The position numbers were made by a program, and so were the translations under genes. Under the pieces are notes generated by a model that was given only the letters and a program-made list of their open reading frames with translations, did no database searches and was not told the origin of the DNA. Shown here in pieces: positions 40,716 through 54,195 of a stretch of DNA of 64,000 nucleotides. The first letter of the stretch is position 1. Each line of letters starts with the position of its first letter. Source of the stretch: a virus; the IMG/VR virus record IMGVR_UViG_3300045988_164919, positions 1 through 64,000 of that record; one strand, 5' to 3'.

Positions 40716-40767
40716 TGGTGCCGGTGGCGGGACTCGAACCCGCATGGTGTTGCCACCGAGGGATTTT

Positions 40768-41505
40768 CTTACTACTCTATGTCACCATAGCCACATTTCT
40801 GTGTTGTAGTCTGGAATACGTCTTTATCATATGCACGACTTGCACTTAGATAGTTGGTATATACTCTCTACACATTTATTTGGAACAATTTTTTCCACGA
40901 TAAGAAGAGGTTTTGGCATGACAATTTGGACATAATAATTGAAAATTATCTAATTCATTATGAAAATGATTTCCATCTTTATGATGAAGTTCTAAAGGAA
41001 TTGGGTCTCCTAACCATTCGGTTAATCCACAACATTCACATTTATACTCTTTATAACCTTCATCAAGAAGTTTTTTTCTTACTTTATTACTCTGTATATC
41101 AATACTTTTTTCCAAGTATTCTAACAAAGATAATTCATGTCCATTAGGTTTTGACAATCCTTTACAACCTTGATTTCCAGCATATTCAAGGCCAAGCTTT
41201 TTTAATACTGGATTAATTGTTTTAGGATTACAACCTAATTCTCTTGCCATTTGAGCTTTAGTCTTACCTTCAGTAATCCATTGCTCAATTTCTTCTTTGC
41301 GTTCTAAAATATCAGTTCTCATTTATATTACCTCTCTTTCATTATTATTTAAAAATTAAAAGAGGCATTTTAATGAGTGTCGTCCAATTTTTTAGAATGT
41401 GTTCCAAAACTTAGCACGGCGTTCTCTTAGCCATTCACCGTTTTAGCCAACTTCTGCTCTAAAAGTTTCCTCTTAGGCACTCCATTTTAACGTTTGCTAA
41501 GTCAA
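40768..41505 (-). mobile_element. group I-like self-splicing intron in tRNA-Leu(UAA), carrying an HNH homing endonuclease ORF
   Basis: 5-prime splice site follows U and the intron ends ...GTAAG; candidate internal guide sequence GAGTGCC can pair with exon end GGGACTT (one mismatch, G.U at the splice site); R-like CCAGACTACA and GNRA-capped hairpins (CACA-GAAA-TGTG, CTATG-GTGA-CATAG) near the 3-prime end; the ORF sits in a peripheral loop. Confidence 0.5.
40876..41322 (-). CDS. HNH homing endonuclease (intron-encoded)
   Basis: CECCG...LELHHKDGNHFHNELDNFQLLCPNCHAKT HNH motif; N-terminal HTH KAQMARELGCNPKTINPVLKKLG. Confidence 0.75.
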   Translation of the reverse strand: MRTDILERKEEIEQWITEGKTKAQMARELGCNPKTINPVLKKLGLEYAGNQGCKGLSKPNGHELSLLEYLEKSIDIQSNKVRKKLLDEGYKEYKCECCGLTEWLGDPIPLELHHKDGNHFHNELDNFQLLCPNCHAKTSSYRGKNCSK

Positions 41506-41640
41506 AAGTCCCTTGTGTCTACCATTCCACCACACCGGCAAATAAACTATATTAATTAAATCAAGGCTCAATTTTGAAAAATAATATAATTCATTTTAGG
41601 TGAACTTTCAAAAGTAAATTTGCTGCATGAGCCTTACGCC

Positions 41641-41715
41641 TGGCACCGGCTCTCAGAGTCGAACTGAGACTTGCTGATTTAGAGTCAGCTGAGCTAACCG
41701 TTACCCAAAGCCGGA
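41641..41715 (-). tRNA. suppressor tRNA with anticodon CUA, decoding UAG
   Basis: Reverse complement TCCGGCTTTGGGTAACGGTTAGCTCAGCTGACTCTAAATCAGCAAGTCTCAGTTCGACTCTGAGAGCCGGTGCCA. Anticodon stem GCTGA/TCAGC, loop CTCTAAA (anticodon CUA), T-arm CTCAG-TTCGACT-CTGAG, 4-nt variable loop, G73, CCA encoded, T1.T72 mismatch. Confidence 0.7.
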
Positions 41716-41831
41716 ATATATAATTACAAGACAGTTTAATAAAGTATCTTCTTATGAACCAAAAACATATGATTATCTTTAATAAAAATTTGCTGAAACT
41801 GTCTTAGAGAAATTGTCCTAACTTCTCTTTA

Positions 41832-41870: not shown

Positions 41871-43200
41871 AAATTATTCAGTAGAATATATTTACAAAAA
41901 TTAATATATCCAATAGAAATAAACTACACCATAGCCACTAACCATTTGTTGGTCGCCTCTATGCCTACCCACGCCACTAAGTACTTCAGCTTACCTCGTT
42001 CATTAGCTATTGGAATATATTAAATTTTTGACCTACCATTAAACTTATAATACCCACCAATAGGAAGTAAATATACAGTTTTTAACAATAGGATTTTAAT
42101 TCTATAATCTAACAAAATAAATAAATAACTCTACCTATTATATGTCCTTTTCGCGAGTCCACTACGTCTCATTTTCCACGCCTTTATATGAGAGACTACC
42201 AAGGATCTTATTTCCGCACTTGGTAATGGCTTTTTGATATGTGAGCCACAAACATCCCTATTCAGCTTATTTATAGTGGAGAGCTGGCTGGTTTAGCGTA
42301 TTGTTCCACTACCTAATTAACCAAGATTAGGACGCTAATCAAATATCTGATACGTATCAGTACGGTTTCCAGATATATCATTTCACCAGACAACAGGCGA
42401 GTCAACCTTATTTGATTAGATTATGTAAGAACCCTACAGCCATAGGAGCAGGTTCCGCAGAGGCCTCTAACGATGTGGGATTGGCTACCCAATGAGGTTA
42501 ATGTGCAAGCCACCGCCTATATTAGCATCTACATAATTCATTTCAAATAAATCATTTAATGATTTATTTTTAACAGGAAAGGAAATCGTAAGTTATTAAA
42601 TAATAACTTAATTACAATTATACTACGGACCTTCGCCCTACTGGTTAATAATCTTCATTTTATTAGGTAAGTAAGGAAACAAGTCTGAGCTATGAATAGC
42701 GACTTCATAACTTCTTGCCCCGGCCTAAGCCAAATCTCACAGAGGACTGACTACCTCTATCTTTCACCGACCATTCAGAATAGTATTACCAATAATTTTT
42801 ACTAAATTAATATCATACTGTCTTGGCAAATTTCGGCTACTTGACCCTTGACCTTCTCTTATAGTAGATTACGCCACATCAATTGCCAACTTCCTTATTG
42901 GTATTTCCTTGGTTTGGCAAAGTTACCAGCCTTACCCTAACAAGGATTCGGCATTGCTGTTAACAATGCTGTCTATTATGGAAGCGAGAAGAACAGGACC
43001 TTAAATGCGATTATCCCAGCACAATCTCCCCGTAGCCGCATCCTTTGATGCGTGAATCTAATGTATCACTACAAAAGATTTAGAAATAATTTCAAAGTAT
43101 CCTTTGAATATTCCATTCTACAATCTCCGCCAGAGTAGGTCGATTTCTCAGCCTTATGGTGTTAAGTCTGCACTGAGTTGTACTATAACCGTAATTAAAT
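41870..43200 (-). ncRNA. candidate large structured noncoding RNA (about 1.3 kb, class unknown)
   Basis: No ORF of 60 aa or more in any frame over about 1.5 kb; GC is markedly higher than the genome; bounded by promoter motifs at 43225-43250 and 41832-41870; many local hairpins; the 12-mer caccatagccac (41927-41938) repeats the 3-prime-terminal element of the tRNA-Leu intron (40783-40794). Confidence 0.3.
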
Positions 43201-43224
43201 TATTATTTAATTTTTAAAGTTCAT

Positions 43225-44580: not shown

Positions 44581-45455
44581 CAAATTATACAACATAAATA
44601 ATGTGCTAATTCTAATTGATATTCTTGCTTAAAGAAAAAAGGAACTATTGAAAAAATTATAGTGAATACATCATTTCGACCGCTTAATTTAAAGCTGTTA
44701 TAAAATAATGGTAAATATTTTTCACATATTTCATTATAAGTAATTTGATCATTCTTATAATGAAAATTCTTTAAAGGATCATCACTTTTTAATGTTTTAC
44801 ATTTTAAAATATCTTTTGAAGTTACTTCTTCATATAAAGTTATTTTAGCAAATCCATTATAATGTTTATATAAATATGGACAAATAATCGGGCAAGGGTC
44901 ATTGCATAAAAGTTCAAATCTATTTCTTACTTCTATTGGAATTGATTCTAAAAACTTAAAATCTTTTATTTGTCTTCGAGGTAAAACAATTTTATCATAT
45001 TTATTTAAAAGAGACAAATAATCTGTATTTTTATTTGAAGCTATTATACTTCTTTTAATTTTAAATTTAGGATATTTATTTCTTATATATTCTTCTAAAA
45101 TAGAGGAAGAAACTAAAATTGAATTATTTTCATTTTCACATAAGGAAACGATTTTATTACAATATCTATCATACAAGTCTTCTTTTGTTAATAATGGATT
45201 TGTTAAGGTTAAAGCAATTTCTATATTATTTCCATAATAAAAATCAATAATTTCTTTTATTTTTTCTAATGAAGGTTGATAGCCTTGATTGACAGTTCCT
45301 CCATTCCAAATCATATTTGGGAATGTATCGAATATACTCTCTATAGCTACATTAAAATTGAAACATTCTGGAGCTGTCTATTGTAATTCTAAAAGAGTTT
45401 TATATATATTAAATCCAGTATAAAATCCTGGACAATTTAAATTTATTTTTTTCAT
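44580..45455 (-). CDS. paralog family A protein 1 (unknown function; N-terminal NxPGxY, IWNGG, C-terminal Cys cluster); one TAG
   Basis: MKKINLNCPGFYTGF...FPNMIWNGGTV...ELLCNDPCPIICP; paralogous to 46999..47763 and 47774..48622. Confidence 0.5.
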
Positions 45456-45462
45456 ATTTAAA

Positions 45463-46233
45463 TTATATAATATTTTTTACTTTTTATCAAATATAAAATT
45501 TTGAATAATTTGTATTCTCCATTTTTTGAATTAACTAATTTTGATATTTTGTGTTAGTAGGAGCATTTAAATAAAAATTTTTTATTTCTGAAATTTTATT
45601 TAAAAGTTCATTTCTTTTTACTATAAAATCAAAATTACTGTAATTATTAAAATTATTTTTTATATCTAAAATATATGGTTTATACATTCCTAGCTATAAA
45701 CTTTGTTTATAACTTTTTGTTTTATAATATTCAATTATTATTATTAGATCAATAAAAGATTTATAAATTAATTTATAATAATTTTTTAATTTATAATAAT
45801 TTTCTCGTAATCCAGTCTAAAATAATCTATTACTTTCATTAATTAATTGAGAATAAATGACTGGTAAATTTTCTTTAACTATATCTTCATTAATTTTTTT
45901 TATTTCTAAAGTAAATTCATTATCACTTAAATAATGATAAGGGAATAACCATCTATAATAACTATAGTTATTATTATAAAATAAATTATAAATAAAATGT
46001 TCTCCTGTATAAATCCGCCTTGAAGGATTCCAATTTATAATATTAAATTTTTTCATAAAATTATTAGACTATTCCTATGGAATTAAATTTAAATCAAAAT
46101 TTGAAATTTTTTTTAATTCTTTTTCCATATTTATAAAAGAAGAATAGATTTCAATAATATCTATATCACTTGTGTTATTATTTATTCCATGCTGGTAAGA
46201 ACCATCGATCAATCCATATAAAAAATAATCCAT
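45463..46233 (-). CDS. nucleotidyltransferase-fold protein (Pol-beta-like minimal NTase motif); several TAGs
   Basis: N-terminal MDYFLYGLIDGSYQHGINNNTSDIDIIEIY (hG[GS]...D[IV]D); in frame with ORF 45817..46056 through TAGs. Confidence 0.3.
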
Positions 46234-46235
46234 AG

Positions 46236-46871
46236 TTACCTCAATAGTATAGTTAAATTTTTTGTATGTTCAATTAATTTTTTTATTTTAAATATTGTTA
46301 AATGAAAAGCCCATTTATCAGGATAATGGTCAGTATCATGTTTATAATAAAATTTTGGTAAATGATAATATTTAGGATATAAGATATTAAATATTTCTTC
46401 ATCTGTTTGAAAATTTATATAAAACTATAATATTGATTTATATAAATTTTTATTTGGCTTTATTATAGCTATTCCGCCACTTAATCGTCCTTTAGATTCC
46501 TAGTTATCATATATTTCATAAAAACTACCATCTGGATAATCAAAAATATTATCAATATTTTCAGCAATTAAAATATCAGCATCTATAAAACAAATTTTTT
46601 TGTACTAAGTTAAAGTATAAATAAAAAATTTATTAGCGGTATCTTTATAAAAATTAGAATCTCCACAAAAATAAATTGGCTATTCTATTATTTTATAATT
46701 TATATTATTTTTTTTTAAAATTTTAAAATAAATATCTGATACATTATTAGTAGTTAATAGTAAAAATGGATATTTACTATTAACTTTTTTTAATGAAAAA
46801 TATAAGGCACAAGCACATTTAATATATTTATCAGTTGTTGCAAGTGTTACAAAGCAGTATTTGTCGTTCAT
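46236..46871 (-). CDS. glycosyltransferase family 8-like (about 4 TAGs)
   Basis: CFVTLATTDKYIKCACALYFSLKK...FLLLTT and DxD segment ICFIDADILI. Confidence 0.45.
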
Positions 46872-46998
46872 CAGTGACTCCTAAAATATCTGTTACACAA
46901 TGTTCAATAAAATCATATTGGTATTCTGGTAATAATAAATATCGAGCATAAGTACATATATTATCAATATAATTTAAAGAACGTCCCTCTAATTTATA

Positions 46999-47763
46999 CT
47001 ATTCAATACCAAGAGGATAATACAAATTATAAATATTATCTAATGTTACTGTATTCTTATAAGCAATAACTTCTGGGCTATTAACACTTTTAACTGCTTT
47101 ACAATTTAATGTATAAGGTTTTCCATAAGATAAAGCATATTCACTATTGATTTTATAATGATTAATACGATTTGGACAATTAGGAATACAAATTGCATTA
47201 CATAATAATTCAATTTTATTTTTTAAATTTAAAGGAATTTGTTTTAAAAAATCTATATTAGAATTTAAATCATAATCTAAACAAATAAATTTATATTGAG
47301 CTTTCTTAATTTCATTTAAACTTTGTTCTAAATTTGTAATTCTTTTAGTGGTTGAAGAAATAAAATTATACTTATTATATTTATTTCTAATATATTCTTC
47401 TAACCCTTCATTATTAATTACAATTTCATTCAATCCATTATTTCCAATAGCTAAAATGAGATTTTCAAAACGACTATTATAATTTTCTTTAGTTAATAAC
47501 TAATTTGTAAAAACTAATCTGACCGCAATATTATAAGAATTATAAAAATTAAAAATTTCCTCAATATCTTTTTTTAAAGCCTAATGAGTTTTAAAATTAG
47601 TAAAAGTTCTGCCGCCTTCCCAAGAACAAAATTGGAAATTTCCATAACAAGCATGAATTGTAATATTTTTATTAAAAATTTCTGGCTATTTATTAAGTTG
47701 TTCAATTGTTAATTTATTTAATTGGTATGTTTCATACATACCTGGTAAATTAAAATTAATCAT
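46999..47763 (-). CDS. paralog family A protein 2 (3 TAGs)
   Basis: MINFNLPGMYETYQ...EEYIRNKY...ELLCNAICIPNCPNRINHY. Confidence 0.5.
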
Positions 47764-47773
47764 TACTTATATT

Positions 47774-48622
47774 TTATCTCCTTATAAATAATTCTTGAAA
47801 GGCATATTCTTTAAATTCTGGTTTAATAAAATAATTAATTAAAAATAGACCGTATTCATTTTCATTGTTAGAGAAATAATCTATTAAAAAATTAGTGATA
47901 CCCATAGGGATATAAATATCTTTAATTTCTTTAATCGTTATATATTGTTTATTATTTATAGAATTTTTACAATTACAAAATGTAGGTTCAAATGTATAAT
48001 TTAATATATTATTATTTTCTACTATTGGACATTGAAAATAATTTTTACATTTTGGATTACAAAGATTATTAACTGGAATTATAATATTTTCTTTATTATT
48101 AATTTCATTTAAATATTGCTGTGAAGTTTTAAACTCGTTAGGGATTATTATATATAATGGATTTAAATTTTGATGAAAATTATTTATAATATCGGGAGTA
48201 AGAGGATATAAGATATTAGCATTTTTAGAAATAACATATTTCAAATTAGGAAATTTGTTATTTATATAATTTAATAAATCTAAATTACTAATTTCAAAAA
48301 TGCAATTATTTGGTAATAATTTTAAAATTACATTACTCATTACATCATAGAAATCTGATTTTTCTAATAAAATATTAGAAAAATCTAACCACAAAGGTAA
48401 ATTACTTTGCTTAATTATTAATTCTATATTAGGATACAATAAAGTATCACCAACCATGTTATTTAATCCTCCATTCCAAATATTATAAGGGAATGTCCCT
48501 CTAATATAGGAAAAAACTATGTTTTTATCAAGAAGCCAATTAGTATGGCTTCTTGATAAATTAATAAATTTATCATTTACAGTATGAAAATAGTAAAAAT
48601 CAGGTAAGGTAAATTTAATCAA
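47774..48622 (-). CDS. paralog family A protein 3 (no TAG)
   Basis: MIKFTLPDFYYF...FPYNIWNGG...NLCNPKCKNYFQCP; RBS AGGAGAATAAAATTG. Confidence 0.5.
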   Translation of the reverse strand: MIKFTLPDFYYFHTVNDKFINLSRSHTNWLLDKNIVFSYIRGTFPYNIWNGGLNNMVGDTLLYPNIELIIKQSNLPLWLDFSNILLEKSDFYDVMSNVILKLLPNNCIFEISNLDLLNYINNKFPNLKYVISKNANILYPLTPDIINNFHQNLNPLYIIIPNEFKTSQQYLNEINNKENIIIPVNNLCNPKCKNYFQCPIVENNNILNYTFEPTFCNCKNSINNKQYITIKEIKDIYIPMGITNFLIDYFSNNENEYGLFLINYFIKPEFKEYAFQELFIRR

Positions 48623-48874
48623 TTTTATTCTCCTATAGAATATAGCTAATTTGTTAATTTATTTAATTCTTTTGAATAATCTATATTTAAATCTTTTAGT
48701 CGTAAATCCTAATTCTATAATAAATTTGCTAAGGTATAAATTATTTTTTTATTGACTTCTGGATTTGGTTCTTCTAAAGTAACCATATTATTGTATATAA
48801 CAAATAATAAATCCATATATCCCTTATTTTCTTTTATAATATTATTTGTAATTTCTTTTAAAATATTATCTAAA

Positions 48875-50245
48875 TTATCCATTTAAATCATACCCCAATT
48901 CTATAGCTATGTTTTCTATTACTTTTGGTAATATTTTTTGATCTTTCGCACTTTTCAAAACTCCAGTTTCAAAATATAATTTAAATAAATAATTATATTT
49001 TTCTTGAAATAAATTACAAACTGATAAACAAGGGATAGAAAAATCACCATAAGTTTCTATCTAAGCTCCCAAACATCCTTTAATACAGACATCTCTACAC
49101 CAGCATTCTAAACATCTTGGAGCATAAACAGGGTTAAAAGATTTCATTCCTATATAAGCTGTGGCATTATCACTTATTAAATCAATTATCTCTGTTTTTT
49201 CATCATTTATTTTAAAATGTCCACCAATTAAATGATTATAACAAGTACGATGACAAGGAACGATAGCTAAATCTCCAACCCTTATATGAACAGTAGACTA
49301 CAATGCACAGCTTATTCGGTTATGTCTGTCTTCTTTATCTGATAAATTCATTAATCGTATAGGATCTCCATTGTGCTCATTAAATGTAGGAGTATTATTA
49401 GCCCCATCCCCTTTAAACATTGCATAAGCCATAGTATTAATATCATTATTGCAATCATTCAATCTATCTTCAAAGATATGTTTTAAGAATTTTTTATAAT
49501 TCTCTATAGATTCTTGAGTCCAATTATTATTTCGAACTTCTAACATATAAGGAGTTTTCTACCATGAATTGTATTCTTTTAATTTCTTTTTAAACCAATC
49601 ATAAGTTTTAATGGCTTTATCAACATTTTGGCTAGAAATCATAGGATGGAAGCCATCATTATTTTCTGTAGCAAATTCAAATAATTTATTAAAATATTCA
49701 TCATTTAAATCTTTATGTTCTCTAAATTCAGTGCTATACGGCCCATCAGTAGAAAATGAAAAATGAATTTCTACATTTATATCTTTCATCTTTTGGATAT
49801 ATTTTTTTATTTTTATTACTTTTTCATTATCAGAAATAAAACTACCATTAGTAGGTATTACTAGTTTACCTTTTTCTTTTATTCTATAAGCAAATTCATA
49901 CCATTTTTTTAAATATGGGAAAAATACATCTAGTATTTCAAAAATTAATCCATCATAAAATAGGTCTCCGGCAAATAATGACCACTCTAAAGGTTTTATT
50001 TGTTTTTTATCAAAATAATCTAATAATAATTTTAAATTATCTAATATCTAAGAATTAGAAAAATGTTCTGGATATAATTCTTTGCCATAATTAGTTATAT
50101 AACAATAATCACATTTTTGATTACAGTCTTGTCTTATAATTAATTCTAATATTTCATTTTCCATCTTTTTTAATTCATGATTAAAAATAAAATTCTAAAA
50201 TAGAATATTTTCTTCCTATTGGAAATCAATAGACGTTGTTATCAT
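48875..50245 (-). CDS. radical SAM/SPASM enzyme number 2 (peptide-maturase/anSME-like); about 6 TAGs
   Basis: RQDCNQKCDYCY (CxxxCxxC); hand-translated C-terminal SPASM ...PCHRTCYNH...RCLECWCRDVCIKGCLGA; strong RBS GGAGGA before ATG 50243-50245. Confidence 0.6.
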
Positions 50246-51678
50246 TATTTTTCCTCCAAAACTTCTTCAATAATTCCATTACAATATCTTCTTAAAAATC
50301 CACTATCTCTAAAGAAATAAGAACCAGTACTGATTAAACTATTAAAAAAACAAGAATGTATAGGTACTAATAATAATGCTGCTTTCATTAAAAATTTATC
50401 GTCATTAAATTTTTGACTTATCTAATGCACTTCTCGTAAATTACATAATAAAGAAACAATCTAATTATATACATAAAAAAAACTAGATACAGATAAAGTT
50501 TCAAATAAAAAACAACAATTTTTTATATCTTCATCTTTATCTTTCAATGGATTTATATAATTATGATGATTTGCGGCAAATTGCTTAATAATCCCAATTT
50601 TATCATTAGTATTAATATATTCTGGATTAGTATCATAAAGAGAACTCTAACAATTTACTAATGTTCCATCATATAAAAGTTTTAAGCTTCCTGTTTTTTC
50701 TCCGCAATATAAGAATGGAGTTAAGTTTCTATTATAATTCTTTAATTCTTTATTAGAGAATGCTAAAATTTTATCAAGAGCTTCATCTAAATTAGAACAT
50801 TCCAAATTTTTTAATAAAAATTTTTTTGCTTTTCGAGGTAAACACAATAATCCTTCAATAGAGTCTTTATCTGGATTATTAATTTCTGGATAATGTTCTC
50901 CAATTGATTTACAAATTTTTATAAAATTACTCCAATTAATACCATCAATACTAGAAGTATTAATAGGTAATTCGCTAGAGAAATTTATAGTATTTTTGAT
51001 AAAAACAGATTTATTTAGATTTAAATTAGTTAAATATTGAATTTTTTCATTAGCCTAAATAAAATACTATTCTATTTCTTTGTAATTATTATTAAAATGA
51101 TTTATGAGTTCATTACTAATAACTCCATGAGTATTAAGAGCAATAGTAATATTATTAAAATGAATTGTATTTAAAGTTTCTATTAAATATTTTAAATTAT
51201 TATATACTACTTTAGAATTAGCTCTTCTTACATTATCAGTACTATAATCTCCATCATAAGAAAACTAAATACAAATAAATGAATGTTTTTTAGTTAAATT
51301 ATCAAAAGTTTTTAAAAAATCAATTATTTTATCAGTATTAGCCATACCATTAGTAGAAGTAAAAAATTCATTAATATTGGGACATAATTCAAAAAAATCT
51401 TTTAAATTTTTAGTAAAATGTTCTAATACTAATGTAGGTTCTTGACCCCAAAAACTTATTTTATGGATATTTAATGGATCAACTTCTAATTTTTTCATAA
51501 CATTTTTAATATTCTATAAATAACTTCCATCTTTAAGAGCCTTTATAGTCTATTCTTGTAACTATTTACTATATTCATTTACAGCCTAAGCTGAATGACA
51601 ATATTTACAATTTAAATTACATCCACAAGCTCCAATAATAGATAATTCTTCTATTGAAAAATCCGATATATATTTCAT
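50239..51678 (-). CDS. radical SAM/SPASM enzyme number 3; many TAGs
   Basis: MKYISDFSIEELSIIGACGCNLNCKYCH (CxxxCxxC), WGQEPTL, downstream Cys clusters; RBS AAAGGAGAAAAAGGA. Confidence 0.5.
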
Positions 51679-51698
51679 TCCTTTTTCTCCTTTAAATG

Positions 51699-52214
51699 TT
51701 AAGTGTGCCTAGAACCGTAATGACTAGAGCATCCATGAGATGAACACCAGGTTTGATTAACCCCTGACCAATAGGAAGAATGATAACCTGAACCATCATG
51801 AGAAGAATTATAAGAAGTATCCCATCCTGCTCCATAATCAGAACTATCCCAACTACTATTATATCCACTACCTCTATGGCTAGCATTATAACTCGCATCA
51901 TGAGCGCAAGTATCATTTATGCTTCTAATTGTAGTAGTAAATCTATTAAAAATAATAGGACTAATTAAATCTCCTGCCGAAGGAGGATTTTCACTAATAT
52001 TTGCTCTTGAACCAACATAACTGCTACTGGAAAAAGATTCTATATACTTATTTAAATTCTGAGCTAATTGAGCCATAGCTTGTGTTGACTATCCTCCAGG
52101 AGTCGCTTGAAAATCACTCTAACTAGGGAAAAATTTTTTTCTTGCGGTATTTAAATTAGTAAAAATAGTCTAAATATCACTCCAATTTATTTTAGAGTTT
52201 GAACTAATTGCCAT
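51699..52214 (-). CDS. precursor-like peptide/protein with a Ser/Gly/Tyr/His/Trp-rich repetitive C-terminus, immediately upstream of radical SAM number 3 (3 TAGs in the N-terminal leader)
   Basis: ...CAHDASYNASHRGSGYNSSWDSSDYGAGWDTSYNSSHDGSGYHSSYWSGVNQTWCSSHGCSSHYGSRHT; good RBS GAGGAGGAAAAAT before ATG 52212-52214; alternative internal start at 52076. Confidence 0.4.
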
Positions 52215-54195
52215 ATTTTTCCTCCTCGCATTTTATAAAATCAATATACTCTTTGTTAATAAATTGTTTAATTAGTTTATTATTATCAAGTATATGATTT
52301 CCTTTATTAAATAGACTATTTAAATTAAATAATACAGTATTATTTAATTTAATAAAATCTTCTTTTTTTATTTTATTTAATAAATCTTTATAAAACAATG
52401 ATAACTTATTAAACAAAATTTTATCATTAATTAAAATTAAACAAATAAGACTTAAACAAATTGCTTCTTCTTGTTTTATATCTTTTAGATATTCTTTGTC
52501 TTTATCAGTTACTTCTTCTATTATAGATAAATTTACAATAATTTTATTAAAAATATGTTCGAAAATAAAATGATTATTTTCATATTTTTTATTTGTTAAA
52601 TATTGTCTATAAAAATAAGTAAAAACAATTAATTCATTTATTGTCATATATAAAAAATTAATATCTTTGCCCATACTTTCATTATTTCTATTATATACGT
52701 AAATAGGCTATTCTAAGAAGGGAATTGCACCATTATAAAAATCAAAAATCTATAATGATAAAAATCTATCTTCATTATAAATAAATTTGCCATAAGAAAA
52801 ATTATTTTTTATAAAAAATTCTCTATTATATAAATAACTATGAGCGTCATGGATAAATTCATTTTTATCATAGGTCTATCCATTTACAATTCCATAATTA
52901 TTATTTTCAGCATATATATATAAATTTTCTAAAGCCTTATTATCATAAAAATAATCATCACTATCTAAACAGAAAAAATACTTATTGAAGCTATTATTAA
53001 TTCCTAAAGTCCTAGCTGACGCAGGGCCTGATTTAGTTTTCTAAGTATCTAATAATATTATATTGTATATATTATTATAAGTTTTATAAAATTCATATAC
53101 ATATTTTTTATCTGGAGAATTATCACTAATTAAATAGATTACACAATCATTAATAATACTTTGTTTAAAGACAGAATCTAAACATTTCTAAAAATATATT
53201 TTATTTATTGTATAAAAAGGAATTATAATATCAATTTTTCCTTCGTTGCGCTTTCTAAATGTCCTCATTTTATCAGGAGCATACCAAGAATCAACGTTAT
53301 TCCAAGATTTCTTTTTTGAAAAATCCTAAAAATTAGAAAAATCAACAAATTTTTTATAATATTCATTATAATTTGTTAAGAATAATTCTTTTTCTGTTTT
53401 AGTATATTCATCATAAGTTTTAGTCGATTGATCCCAATCAACCACATCTCCTGGCCGACAATATTTACATATATTTTTTTCACATAATTTTAAATTCTAT
53501 AAATCTTGTAAATTTGTTTTTTCTGTTAGTTTTATAAAATCTTTATTTTCTATTAATGGAATTTGTTTAAAAAAATAATTACAAAAATTATTTATGTGTG
53601 CCCCAAACTGACAAAAATATATTTTAAAATCTTTTAATGTAAAGCAAGGAATCCTATTTGGACAACTATATATACGAGTTTTATTATCTTGTTTACCTAA
53701 AGGGTCAACCAATGTCTAATCAAAGAAAAATCTATCATTTAAATATGAGATATTTTTATTATTGCTAAAATCTTTGTAGTCTTGATTAGGATATTTAGAA
53801 ATACTTATATGTATATTTAATTCTTCTAATTTTTTTAATTTTTTTGTATCATAATTATTTAAAATTATACCATTAGTTAATATCTTTATTTCTATCTCTG
53901 GGAGAATATTTCTAGCTATCTAACATAATTCTATTAAATTAGGATGTAAAAATGGTTCTCCCCCTAATAGCATTAAAACTTTAATAGAAGGCAAAGTTTT
54001 TTTTACTAATTTTAGCTAATTTTGAAAATCTTCGTAAGTAATAAAAAATGGAGAAGCCAAAGGAGAAAAATGATTACAATTATTGCATTGTAGGTTGCAA
54101 TGGTCTACTAAATGAATTTCTAATTCAAATCCATCAAAAACTGTAGGCCAAAATGCTCTAGTAGGTCCATCTCTATACTAATTTATTTTATTCAC
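52192..54195 (-). CDS. radical SAM (number 4) fused or translationally coupled to a family-2 glycosyltransferase; start uncertain, about 8 TAGs
   Basis: VDHCNLQCNNCNHF (CxxxCxxC) and LLGGEPFL, then Cys clusters CPNRIPC...CQFGAHINNFC...CEKNICKYC, then GT2 motifs KIDIIIPFYT...CLDSDD. I hand-verified a continuous frame across 53212-53497 containing only a TAG; it then continues into ORF 52204..52674. Confidence 0.35.

What the first reader, a model, noticed from the sequence alone, without database searches (positions are those of the whole stretch)
40716..41539. tRNA-Leu(UAA) split by a 738-bp group I-like intron carrying an HNH homing endonuclease
The two exons (41506-41539 and 40716-40767) join into a canonical 86-nt type II tRNA-Leu with anticodon loop CTT|AAAA. 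The insertion lies between U34 and A35, the same anticodon-loop position as the classic trnL(UAA) group I introns of cyanobacteria and plastids. The intron starts after U, ends in G, has a plausible internal guide sequence, an R-like CCAGACTACA, and GNRA-capped P8/P9-like hairpins. It contains a 148-aa HNH endonuclease ORF (40876-41322). An intron-split tRNA in a phage whose tRNAs also drive stop-codon recoding is unusual. Splicing would be required to make functional tRNA-Leu for the abundant UUA codons of this AT-rich genome.
Basis: partly seen in the sequence, partly recalled or inferred. Interest (0 to 1): 0.75.

Follow-up and report, generated by a model that had tools for sequence, protein, structure and literature searches.

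The report
Mobile group I intron splitting phage tRNA-Leu
A phage tRNA-Leu(UAA) gene is interrupted in its anticodon by a 738-base group I intron that carries its own HNH homing endonuclease; it is a classic kind of element in a host where it has hardly been described, and it belongs to a large phage-borne family that standard tools miss.

Summary
Window 41539-41506 and 40767-40716 (minus strand) join into an 86-nt tRNA-Leu(UAA). A closely related phage contig carries the same gene uninterrupted, with identical exons. This fixes the insertion between U34 and A35.

The 738-nt insert is a group I intron. Rfam gives no hit on the window copy, which holds about 520 nt of ORF and leader in loop L6. 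ORF-less relatives score 54-69 bits on RF00028, above the gathering score of 50.

A 57-sequence alignment that includes the window copy shows 96% pairing. 37 of 58 pairs carry compensatory changes across P2-P9, and the G-binding G-C pair with its bulged A is invariant.

The true R element lies just after the ORF stop codon.

The 148-aa ORF is an HNH endonuclease, 51% identical to phage T5 HegA. The intron is 96-97% identical between tRNA-Leu genes whose exons are only 74% identical, which indicates homing.

At least 88 viral loci carry this intron family at the same site. It is a known kind of element in an under-reported host. Splicing and DNA cleavage are inferred, not shown.

The parts
41506..41539 (-). 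tRNA-Leu(UAA) 5' exon (acceptor, D arm, anticodon stem 5' strand, C32 U33 U34)
   Evidence: ARAGORN on the joined exons. The identical uninterrupted gene occurs in L005.
40716..40767 (-). tRNA-Leu(UAA) 3' exon (A35 onward, long variable arm, T arm, encoded CCA)
40768..41505 (-). Group I intron, 738 nt; omega-G at 40768
   Evidence: Boundaries come from the intron-less allele. Family membership comes from nhmmer on the 5' domain (E 1.8e-18) and alignment A1. The fold comes from covariation and from RF00028 hits on ORF-less relatives.
41479..41482 (-). Internal guide sequence G24 A25 G26 (U27). It pairs with exon C32 U33 U34 (A31) to form P1, with a U34.G24 wobble at the 5' splice site.
   Evidence: Read directly from the sequence. 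CUU/GAG is invariant in 47-48 aligned sequences (helix 1). The Rfam alignment of L148 places P1 here.
41496..41501 (-). L1 segment CUUAGC (intron nt 5-10) that pairs with L5 GCUAAG (41426-41431), forming a pseudoknot in place of a P5 hairpin
   Evidence: At least 10 different covarying sequence pairs occupy the same positions across the family.
41456..41478 (-). P2 hairpin with a GAAA tetraloop (L2)
   Evidence: All 9 pairs show compensatory changes (helix 2).
41447..41451 (-). P3 5' strand (GUUGG); its partner CCAAC is at 40853-40857
   Evidence: 100% paired. One pair shows 6 pair types with none unpaired (helix 3).
41416..41441 (-). P4 (ACGGUG / CGCCGU) enclosing the short L5
   Evidence: 5 of 6 pairs show compensatory changes; 99.4% paired (helix 4).
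41402..41408 (-). P6 5' strand (UUUGGAA). Its partner UUCCAAA is at 40879-40885, which are the last codons of the ORF. An alternative local hairpin at 41390-41409 is possible.
   Evidence: The five basal P6 pairs all covary; 98.9% paired (helix 6). A-U changes to C-G in L019.
40876..41322 (-). HNH homing-endonuclease ORF (148 aa) with an N-terminal HTH, two CxxC pairs and an HH..N..H motif. It lies in loop L6.
   Evidence: Pfam HTH_38 and a weak HNH match; PHROG HNH endonuclease, E 1.7e-26; 50.7% identity over full length to T5 HegA/F-TflIV, E 1e-39.
41331..41365 (-). Hairpin that sequesters the ORF's Shine-Dalgarno sequence (CCUCUUUU / AAAGAGAGG)
   Evidence: Fold z-score -2.75. In L006 a C-G pair becomes U.G, which keeps the pair.
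40853..40873 (-). True R element: J6/7, P7 5' strand (G638, bulged A639, G640-U645), J7/3 and P3 3' strand
   Evidence: The Rfam consensus GUUCAaAGACUAAAcGgCaGac aligns to the homologous stretch of L148. The G-binding G-C pair is present in 57 of 57 sequences (helix 7).
40825..40852 (-). P8 with an 11-nt-type GAAA tetraloop receptor (UCUAAG...UAUGA; CCUAAG...UAUGG in most relatives)
   Evidence: helices 8-9 (5 of 7 pairs show compensatory changes). The receptor motif is read from alignment A1. Its identification as a receptor rests on my own knowledge.
40813..40824 (-). J8/7 (AAGAC) and P7 3' strand (GUAUUCC), together the S element
40771..40810 (-). P9 (ACUAC/GUAGU) enclosing P9a (GAAA loop) and P9b (GUGA loop), followed by AA and omega-G
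   Evidence: helices 10-12 (11 of 14 pairs show compensatory changes). Some relatives have a single simple P9 hairpin.
41583..41611 (-). Promoter-like TTGAAA-17-TATATT, its downstream hexamer ending 43 nt upstream of the 5' exon
   Evidence: Consensus scan only. Similar sites precede the neighbouring tRNA and ROOL genes.

Best explanation
This is a mobile, self-splicing group I intron. Its architecture resembles the IC3-type bacterial tRNA introns. It is inserted between U34 and A35 of a phage-encoded tRNA-Leu(UAA).

Proposed mechanism:
1. The pre-tRNA is transcribed, probably from its own promoter-like site.
2. The intron folds into the canonical core: P1 with a U.G wobble at the splice site, P2, the P3/P7 pseudoknot, P4, P6, P8 and P9.
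3. Three features could brace the fold: an L2 GAAA loop that could dock on a receptor-like motif in P8, GNRA loops on P9a and P9b, and an L1-L5 pseudoknot that replaces the P5 hairpin.
4. An exogenous guanosine bound at the invariant G-C pair of P7 attacks the 5' splice site.
5. The terminal G (40768) then takes its place, and the exons are ligated into a functional tRNA-Leu that reads UUA, the phage's commonest Leu codon.
6. Loop L6 encodes a 148-aa HTH-HNH endonuclease. Its last codons double as the 3' strand of P6, and its ribosome-binding site sits in a hairpin.
7. The enzyme nicks or cuts intron-less tRNA-Leu(UAA) genes of co-infecting relatives around GGGACTT|AAAATCCC. Recombinational repair then copies the intron in (homing).

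Shown here: the exon junction, the fold by homology and covariation, the ORF family, the presence/absence polymorphism, and the fact that the intron is far more conserved than its host gene.

Inferred: splicing activity, endonuclease activity and its target, the promoter, and the tertiary contacts.
For: 1. Junction. The joined exons give tRNA-Leu(UAA). The intron-less allele L005 has 100% identical exons and 96.7% identical upstream 1.3 kb.

2. Family size. A 19-nt core pattern found 116 viral stretches. 88 loci restore an ARAGORN-verified tRNA-Leu(UAA) once the insert at 34/35 is removed.

3. Rfam hits on ORF-less members. RF00028 scores: L148 69.4, L139 65.5, L067 57.7, L113 54.7 and L104 54.3 bits (gathering score 50). 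L099 scores 49.7, L102 47.4 and L144 43.3 bits, with E between 1e-9 and 1e-7.

4. The window copy aligns with these members. Its 5' domain scores nhmmer E 1.8e-18, and it is row 1 of alignment A1. It departs from the family at only 3 of 91 columns that are at least 90% conserved, and all three departures keep a base pair.

5. Covariation on A1. 96.2% of cells are paired, against 28-41% when partners are slid. 37 of 58 pairs and 485 cells carry double changes. The covariation score is 0.409 against 0.142 for shuffles, and 0 of 500 shuffles reach the observed value.

6. ORF. PHROG HNH endonuclease E 1.7e-26. 50.7% identity over the full length to T5 HegA/F-TflIV.

7. Mobility. The intron is 96-97% identical between the window and L017/L018/L022, whose tRNA exons are only 73.8% identical.
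Against: - The window copy itself gets no RF00028 hit, even at E<=10.
- The ORF-less relatives closest to it (L064, L143, L041, L120, L125, L090) also stay above E 1e-5. The covariance-model evidence therefore comes from more distant family members.
- P1 has only 3-4 exon pairs.
- P7 in this lineage has two G.U pairs.
- The P8 receptor departs from the canonical motif by one compensated pair.
- Pfam HNH is below its cut-off (18.7 against 21.4 bits).
- The structure used for the covariation count was derived from the window sequence, which favours it on the 'cells paired' measure.
- No expression, splicing or cleavage data exist.
Confidence: 0.88

Rival explanations
1. The intron is a decayed relic that no longer splices, so this tRNA-Leu copy is a pseudogene. 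The phage would rely on host tRNA-Leu(UAA).
For: There is no RF00028 hit on the window copy. P7 has two G.U pairs. P1 is very short.
Against: - The core is intact. Only 3 of 91 conserved columns differ, and all three keep a base pair.
- The ORF is uninterrupted.
- Near-identical copies persist in several phage genomes and in two different tRNA backbones.
- The G-binding pair, the bulged A, the U.G wobble and omega-G are all present.
Confidence: 0.05
2. The RNA is a group I intron, but splicing in vivo needs a protein helper, either the HTH-HNH protein acting as a maturase or a host factor. It would not be truly autocatalytic.
For: About 520 nt of ORF and leader must loop out of P6. P6 competes with a local hairpin (intron nt 97-116, 41390-41409). 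The P5 hairpin is absent. Some group I introns are known to need protein cofactors (my own knowledge).
Against: ORF-less relatives with the same core exist, so the core does not depend on the ORF product. HNH endonucleases are not known maturases (my own knowledge). The covarying L1-L5 pseudoknot and the tetraloops provide RNA-only stabilisation.
Confidence: 0.1
3. The HNH gene is a formerly free-standing, tRNA-region endonuclease of the T5 HegA type that merely lodged in L6. Any spread of the intron is then a by-product of cleavage near the site ('collaborative homing'), or the enzyme serves phage-phage competition rather than intron homing.
For: It is 50.7% identical to free-standing T5 HegA, which lies among T5 tRNA genes. 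Family members carry ORFs at two different sites, L6 or L1, and many have none, which points to independent ORF gains.
Against: This does not exclude the main explanation; it describes the origin of the ORF. The ORF's 3' codons now form P6 and covary with it. The intron and ORF move as one unit between tRNA backbones.
Confidence: 0.3

Closest known systems
[quoted passage not shown]
   Same: Same host gene and same site (CUU/intron/AAAA, position 34/35). U at -1 and omega-G. A short CUU/GAG P1. The same order of core elements. Relatives hit RF00028. The site and type are described in bioRxiv 10.1101/2020.01.27.920355 and PMC13011429.
   Different: It resides in a phage genome. It carries an HNH homing-endonuclease ORF in L6, whereas most tRNA introns lack HEGs (12 of 333 in PMC13011429). 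P5 is replaced by an L1-L5 pseudoknot in this lineage. The subgroup was not formally assigned here.
tRNA-Leu(UAA) intron with an HNH HEG in a Bacteroidota genome (PMC13011429, legend of Fig. 6)
   Same: The same combination of tRNA-Leu(UAA), a group I intron longer than 500 bp and an HNH-family HEG.
   Different: It is reported in a bacterial chromosome. Its sequence could not be retrieved because the supplement was cut, so homology with the window intron is untested.
Phage group I introns with homing endonucleases (T4 td/I-TevI, SPO1/SP82 I-HmuI HNH, Twort)
   Same: A phage host, an endonuclease ORF looped out of a peripheral helix, a sequestered RBS, and presence/absence polymorphism among related phages.
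   Different: Those introns sit in protein-coding genes and are subgroup IA2 with P7.1/P7.2 (my own knowledge). The 2014 review PMC3984707 states that all phage introns then known were in protein genes, despite the many phage tRNA genes.
Phage T5 HegA (F-TflIV) HNH endonuclease
   Same: 50.7% identity over all 148 residues. It is located in a tRNA gene cluster.
   Different: It is free-standing, not intron-encoded.
'Enigmatic' tRNA introns of Lak megaphages (PMC6784885)
   Same: Introns in phage-encoded tRNAs of stop-codon-recoded gut phages, conserved across cohorts and with intron-less variants.
   Different: The authors tested them against Rfam and reported no class for them, and no endonuclease gene is described. 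They are in other tRNAs (Tyr, Thr).

Membership tests
Group I intron (Rfam RF00028) | Covariance-model score at or above the gathering threshold | tested here: inconclusive
   Window copy: no hit even at E<=10. Five ORF-less homologues score 54.3-69.4 bits (gathering 50), and three more score 43-50 bits with E<=1e-7. The closest ORF-less relatives stay above E 1e-5. The ORF-deleted window sequence could not be submitted to Rfam.
Group I intron | U.G wobble at the 5' splice site within P1, formed with an internal guide sequence | tested here: met
   U34.G24 with U33-A25 and C32-G26. These pairs are invariant in 47-48 sequences (helix 1) and are placed as P1 by Rfam in L148.
Group I intron | Terminal guanosine (omega-G) at the 3' splice site | tested here: met
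   G at 40768. Every verified family member ends in G before AAAAUC.
Group I intron | P3-P7 pseudoknot, with the guanosine-binding G-C pair and bulged A in P7, plus P4, P6 and P8 | tested here: met
   P3 is 100% paired, with 6 pair types at one position. The P7 G-C pair is present in 57 of 57 sequences, and one P7 pair varies among C-G, G-C, G.U and U-A. P4, P6 and P8 all show compensatory changes. The slid controls reach only 28-41% paired.
Group I intron | Autocatalytic splicing with a guanosine cofactor | not testable with these tools
   This needs an in vitro transcript or RNA-seq.
Subgroup IC3 (bacterial tRNA introns) | Classification by subgroup covariance models; no P7.1/P7.2 and no P5abc; L2 and L9 tetraloop contacts | not tested
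   The layout read from A1 is consistent: there is no P7.1/P7.2, there is a GAAA L2, and P8 carries a CCUAAG/UAUGG motif. The subgroup models are not available here, and the comparison rests on my own knowledge of the Azoarcus and Anabaena introns.
tRNA-Leu(UAA), type II tRNA | Cloverleaf with long variable arm and UAA anticodon after intron removal | tested here: met
   ARAGORN gives an 86-nt tRNA-Leu(taa). An identical uninterrupted gene occurs in L005.
HNH homing endonuclease | HNH (beta-beta-alpha-metal) nuclease motif | tested here: met
   PHROG HNH endonuclease families, E 1.7e-26 and 8.3e-26. T5 HegA, 50.7% identity. The sequence shows CxxC...HH..N..CxxC-H. Pfam HNH alone is below its cut-off.
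HNH homing endonuclease | Genetic signature of homing: presence/absence alleles, and an element more conserved than its host gene | tested here: met
   L005 is the intron-less allele. The intron is 96-97% identical where the exons are 73.8% identical in L017/L018/L022.
HNH homing endonuclease | Site-specific cleavage of the intron-less allele | not testable with these tools
   This needs the purified protein and a DNA substrate.

The most novel reading that the evidence does not exclude

In phages the intron is actively mobile. It has acquired HNH endonuclease genes at least twice, in L6 and in L1. Some of these genes are translatable only with the phage's own TAG or TGA suppressor tRNAs. One lineage has replaced the P5 hairpin with a covarying L1-L5 pseudoknot that ties the 5' splice-site region to the P4 domain.

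If so, phage-mediated homing would help explain the patchy distribution of this intron among bacteria. The P5-less architecture would be a new structural variant of the ribozyme.
Probability: 0.35. Interest if true: 0.65.

Novelty: new member of a known kind. Interest (0 to 1): 0.5.

Why it matters
1. Annotation. Default runs of both ARAGORN and Rfam missed this tRNA-Leu. Codon and tRNA inventories of large recoded phages therefore under-count tRNAs.

2. Host range. A 2014 review stated that phage group I introns were known only in protein genes (PMC3984707). A 2019 paper described phage tRNA introns only as 'enigmatic' and assigned them no class (PMC6784885). Here a well-defined family is found in at least 88 viral loci. 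A representative ORF-less member had no blastn match among 50,697 GenBank phage records.

3. Intron evolution. The tRNA-Leu(UAA) intron is the textbook 'ancient' intron, and its mobility has long been argued over. Endonuclease-bearing copies that demonstrably move between divergent phage tRNA genes make that question testable.

4. A natural series for ribozyme work. The family offers the same ribozyme with and without ORFs, with ORFs at two positions, and with or without a P5 hairpin. This is useful for folding and engineering studies.

Tried and rejected
- Rfam on the window, at the gathering threshold and at E<=10 over 40500-41800: no group I hit.

Its partner GUAGUAAG leaves the G-binding G opposite an A, no P3' follows it, and nothing would remain for P9. 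Relatives with a simple hairpin at this place confirm that it is P9.

- Placing P7 5' at UUGGACGACACUC upstream of the ORF: rejected because L020 lacks that stretch.

- A td-like IA2 reading, prompted by CCGUGCUAA: dropped because there is no P7.1/P7.2.

- blastn of the locus against GenBank phages found only the HNH part. An ORF-less family member found nothing. 44600-52500 found nothing, so the phage has no close deposited relative.

- Table S6 of PMC13011429, which lists the Bacteroidota HNH intron, was not readable because the supplement was cut.

- The PDB sequence search gave only weak HTH matches.

About 14 true family members appeared in MAGs, mainly Clostridia-type, and at least one contig has the same length as a viral contig.

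- The 49-nt insert at the same site in L001/L012 was checked with a fold, Rfam and a collection scan. It remains unexplained.

- I did not build my own covariance model.

- The metagenome scan was not used.

Full report
**1. Observation**

On the minus strand, 41539-41506 reads GCCGGTGTGGTGGAATGGTAGACACAAGGGACTT and 40767-40716 reads AAAATCCCTCGGTGGCAACACCATGCGGGTTCGAGTCCCGCCACCGGCACCA.

Default ARAGORN and the Rfam tRNA model both miss this gene. They find six other tRNAs in the window, including a CUA suppressor at 41641-41715. ARAGORN on the joined halves returns an 86-nt tRNA-Leu(taa). In intron mode it finds a split tRNA at exactly c[40716..41539], with the junction misplaced by 2 nt.

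The decisive check is an exact-match scan of viral contigs with the first 25 nt of the 5' exon. L005 (a 157.5-kb contig) carries the same gene uninterrupted. L006 and L009 carry it with the same insert. L005's exons are 100% identical to the window's, and its upstream 1.3 kb is 96.7% identical. Comparing the two forms allows only one boundary...GGGACTT|TTGAC......GTAAG|AAAATCCC. The insert is therefore 40768-41505 (738 nt), between U34 and A35. It follows a U and ends in G.

**2. What the insert is**

Rfam finds no group I intron in the window at the gathering threshold, nor at E<=10 over 40500-41800.

More diverged copies, reached through the ORF product (L019, L020, L021), showed what is actually conserved. 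That is a block directly after the ORF stop codon, GUGUAGAGA(G/C)UAUA(U/C)ACCA(A/G)C, and a second block, AAGAC(G/A)UA(U/G)UCC.

Together these form a canonical P7: G638-C693, a bulged A639, G640-C692 and so on. P7 encloses the P3 3' strand (CCAAC) and a P8 hairpin. The first block is the true R element and the second is the S element.

A scan of viral contigs with GTAGAGANTATANACCANC returned 116 stretches, and nearly all are homologues.
- For 105 of them a simple rule found boundaries. The rule looks for a G followed by AAAA plus five bases, and for an upstream complement of those five bases followed by CTT.
- 88 loci give an ARAGORN-verified tRNA-Leu(taa) when the insert is removed. A few of these are the same contig fetched twice.
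- Intron lengths run from 196 to 1087 nt.
- Among 63 representatives, 32 have no ORF and 31 have one.
- nhmmer with a 5'-domain profile finds that domain in every representative (window E 1.8e-18). It shows two ORF positions: L6 in 21 representatives including the window, and L1, between the 5' splice site and the guide sequence, in 10.

**3. Group I identity**

ORF-less members hit RF00028 above its gathering score of 50:

| Locus | Bits |
|---|---|
| L148 | 69.4 |
| L139 | 65.5 |
| L067 | 57.7 |
| L113 | 54.7 |
| L104 | 54.3 |
| L099 | 49.7 (E 1.4e-9) |
| L102 | 47.4 (E 6.6e-9) |
| L144 | 43.3 (E 1.1e-7) |

L099, L102 and L144 share the window's L1/L5 type. The ORF-less relatives closest to the window (L064, L143, L041, L120, L125, L090) stay above E 1e-5. 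The model evidence is therefore indirect for this sub-lineage.

The Rfam alignment of L148 places P1, P2, P3, P4, P5, P6, R, P8, S and P9 exactly where my model has them.

I removed the ORF-bearing or other long interior of L6, or of L1 where the ORF lies there, and aligned 57 sequences with the window as row 1 (A1). I mapped my helices from the window row to alignment columns and counted pairs.
- 96.2% of 3185 cells form standard pairs, against 28-41% when the 3' partners are slid by 1-3 columns.
- 37 of 58 pairs, and 485 cells, have changes on both sides.
- The covariation score is 0.409 against 0.142 for shuffles, and 0 of 500 shuffles reach the observed value.
- Every helix from P2 to P9b has compensatory changes.
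- One P3 pair shows six pair types and no unpaired cell.
- The P7 G-binding pair is G-C in 57 of 57 sequences.

One caveat applies. The structure was derived from one of the aligned sequences, which inflates 'cells paired'. It does not inflate the counts of double changes.

The window copy differs from the family at only 3 of 91 columns that are at least 90% conserved. All three differences keep a base pair, so the core is intact.

**4. Structural details**

P1 is just CUU/GAG, plus A31-U27 in this lineage. The P2 loop is GAAA. P8 carries CCUAAG...UAUGG (UCUAAG...UAUGA in the window). From my own knowledge this looks like the 11-nt GAAA-tetraloop receptor motif, the arrangement I recall for the Azoarcus tRNA intron. 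This is a lead, not a test.

The window lineage has no P5 hairpin. Instead, intron nt 5-10 (CUUAGC) are complementary to the short L5 (GCUAAG). Wherever L5 is short, the two segments covary: CUUGGC/GCCAAG, CCUAAC/GUUAGG, CCCUGAU/AUCAGGG, UGUGUUU/AAACACA, UGUAUUC/GAAUACA, AUAUGUUC/GAACAUAU, UUUCCAAUA/UAUUGGGAA, and others.

P6 is formed with the last codons of the ORF (UUUGGAA/UUCCAAA). In L019 it becomes UUUGGC/GCCAAA. A competing local hairpin, intron nt 97-116, is possible.

**5. The ORF**

40876-41322 encodes 148 aa.
- Pfam gives an N-terminal HTH and a sub-threshold HNH match.
- PHROGs gives HNH endonuclease families at E 1.7e-26.
- tblastn gives 50.7% identity over the full length to T5 HegA/F-TflIV, which lies among T5 tRNA genes.
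- The PDB sequence search adds nothing.
- A hairpin (z-score -2.75) buries the Shine-Dalgarno sequence.
- Relatives' ORFs often need TAG or TGA read-through to stay open. L019 has three in-frame TAGs. A preprint on recoded phages noted the same for an intron endonuclease (bioRxiv 10.1101/2021.08.26.457843).

**6. Mobility**

The intron is 96-97% identical between the window and L017/L018/L022. Their tRNA-Leu exons share only 73.8% identity, and their upstream flanks barely align (downstream 300 nt about 80% identical). The same tRNA backbone (L019) also hosts a 79%-identical intron variant. The two backbones share only GGGACTTAAAATCCC around the site. Together with the intron-less allele L005, this is the classical genetic signature of homing.

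**7. Context**

The window is a phage.
- It encodes topoisomerase II, DNA ligase, DnaB, PhoH, a CHAP/amidase endolysin and baseplate-like proteins.
- GC content is 29.6%.
- Reading TAG as sense raises ORF coverage from 32 to 55 kb of 64 kb.
- TTA is half of all Leu codons.
- It has no close relative among GenBank phages.
- A promoter-like TTGAAA-17-TATATT precedes the gene, as for its neighbours (consensus match only).

**8. Literature**

- PMC3984707 (2014) states that all phage introns then known were in protein-coding genes.
- PMC6784885 (2019) reports 'enigmatic' introns in Lak phage tRNAs, described as the first phage tRNA introns, and assigns them no class.
- bioRxiv 10.1101/2020.01.27.920355 and PMC13011429 (2026) describe Leu 34/35 as the classical IC3 bacterial case. 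PMC13011429 mentions one HNH-bearing tRNA-Leu(UAA) intron in a Bacteroidota genome.

I found no report of a group I intron in a phage tRNA gene in the searchable library. That is not proof of absence.

**9. Verdict**

The feature is real and correctly interpreted. It is a new member of a known kind, in an under-documented host and as part of a large family. Splicing and cleavage remain to be shown experimentally.

Noticed in passing
window 40590-40702 (-): A RAGATH-33 RNA (RF03102, 139 bits) starts 13 nt after the CCA of the split tRNA-Leu. The same motif follows the tRNA-Leu gene in L005, L006, L009, L017-L019, L022 and L120, whether or not the intron is present.
   Followed up: partly
window 42608-43201 (-): A full-length ROOL RNA (RF03087, 320 bits) is embedded in the tRNA cluster with its own promoter-like site. 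The related contig L064 has one too (306 bits). A 512-aa ORF at 30536-32074 matches PHROG 850, 'RNA-binding protein'.
   Followed up: no
window 41641-41715 (-) and whole window: A suppressor tRNA(CUA) lies 100 nt upstream of the split tRNA-Leu. Reading TAG as sense raises ORF coverage from 32 to 55 kb of 64 kb, so the phage is TAG-recoded. The window's own HNH ORF has no in-frame TAG, but homologous ORFs in L019 and L021 have three.
   Followed up: partly
window 41496-41501 with 41426-41431; family-wide: An L1-L5 pseudoknot replaces the P5 hairpin. Intron nt 4-10 pair with the 13-15-nt L5 in every member that lacks a P5 stem, with at least 10 different covarying sequence pairs. I do not know of a described equivalent.
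   Followed up: partly
L001 1713-1849 (-) and L012 1570-1706 (+): A different, 49-nt insert (GTTGAGTCTCCAGTGAGTTTAATGAGGGCAGCACTCATACCCAGCACCA) sits at the same 34/35 site of a related phage tRNA-Leu(UAA). It begins with a perfect complement of the exon end (GAGUCUC / GGGACUU, with a U.G wobble) but ends in A, not G. It has no Rfam hit and occurs only in these two contigs. It may resemble the 'enigmatic' Lak phage tRNA introns.
   Followed up: partly
L121, L172, L056, L068, L113: The same ribozyme core occurs in other hosts: a tRNA-Ile(UAU) gene (L121), a tRNA-Asn(GUU) gene in a Clostridia MAG (L172), and what looks like a protein-coding gene with the motif GGCGGCAAC...AACGGCAAC (L056, L068, L113; L113 scores 54.7 bits on RF00028).
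   Followed up: no
L045, L087 (P9a), L046, L060 (P8), L047, L090, L098, L117, L118, L120, L149 (L6): Several family members carry structured-looking inserts in peripheral loops. These include a tRNA-like sequence inside P9a (L045, L087) and a recurrent motif, TAAATGGAGTT(A/T)GA(T/G)GAACAGCC, in L6 of ORF-less copies.
   Followed up: no
L184 (MAG labelled Acholeplasmatales, 123,552 bp) and L096 (IMG/VR contig, 123,552 bp): A contig binned into a bacterial MAG has the same length and the same intron sequence as a viral contig. Some 'bacterial' occurrences of this intron family in genome collections are probably phage contigs.
   Followed up: no
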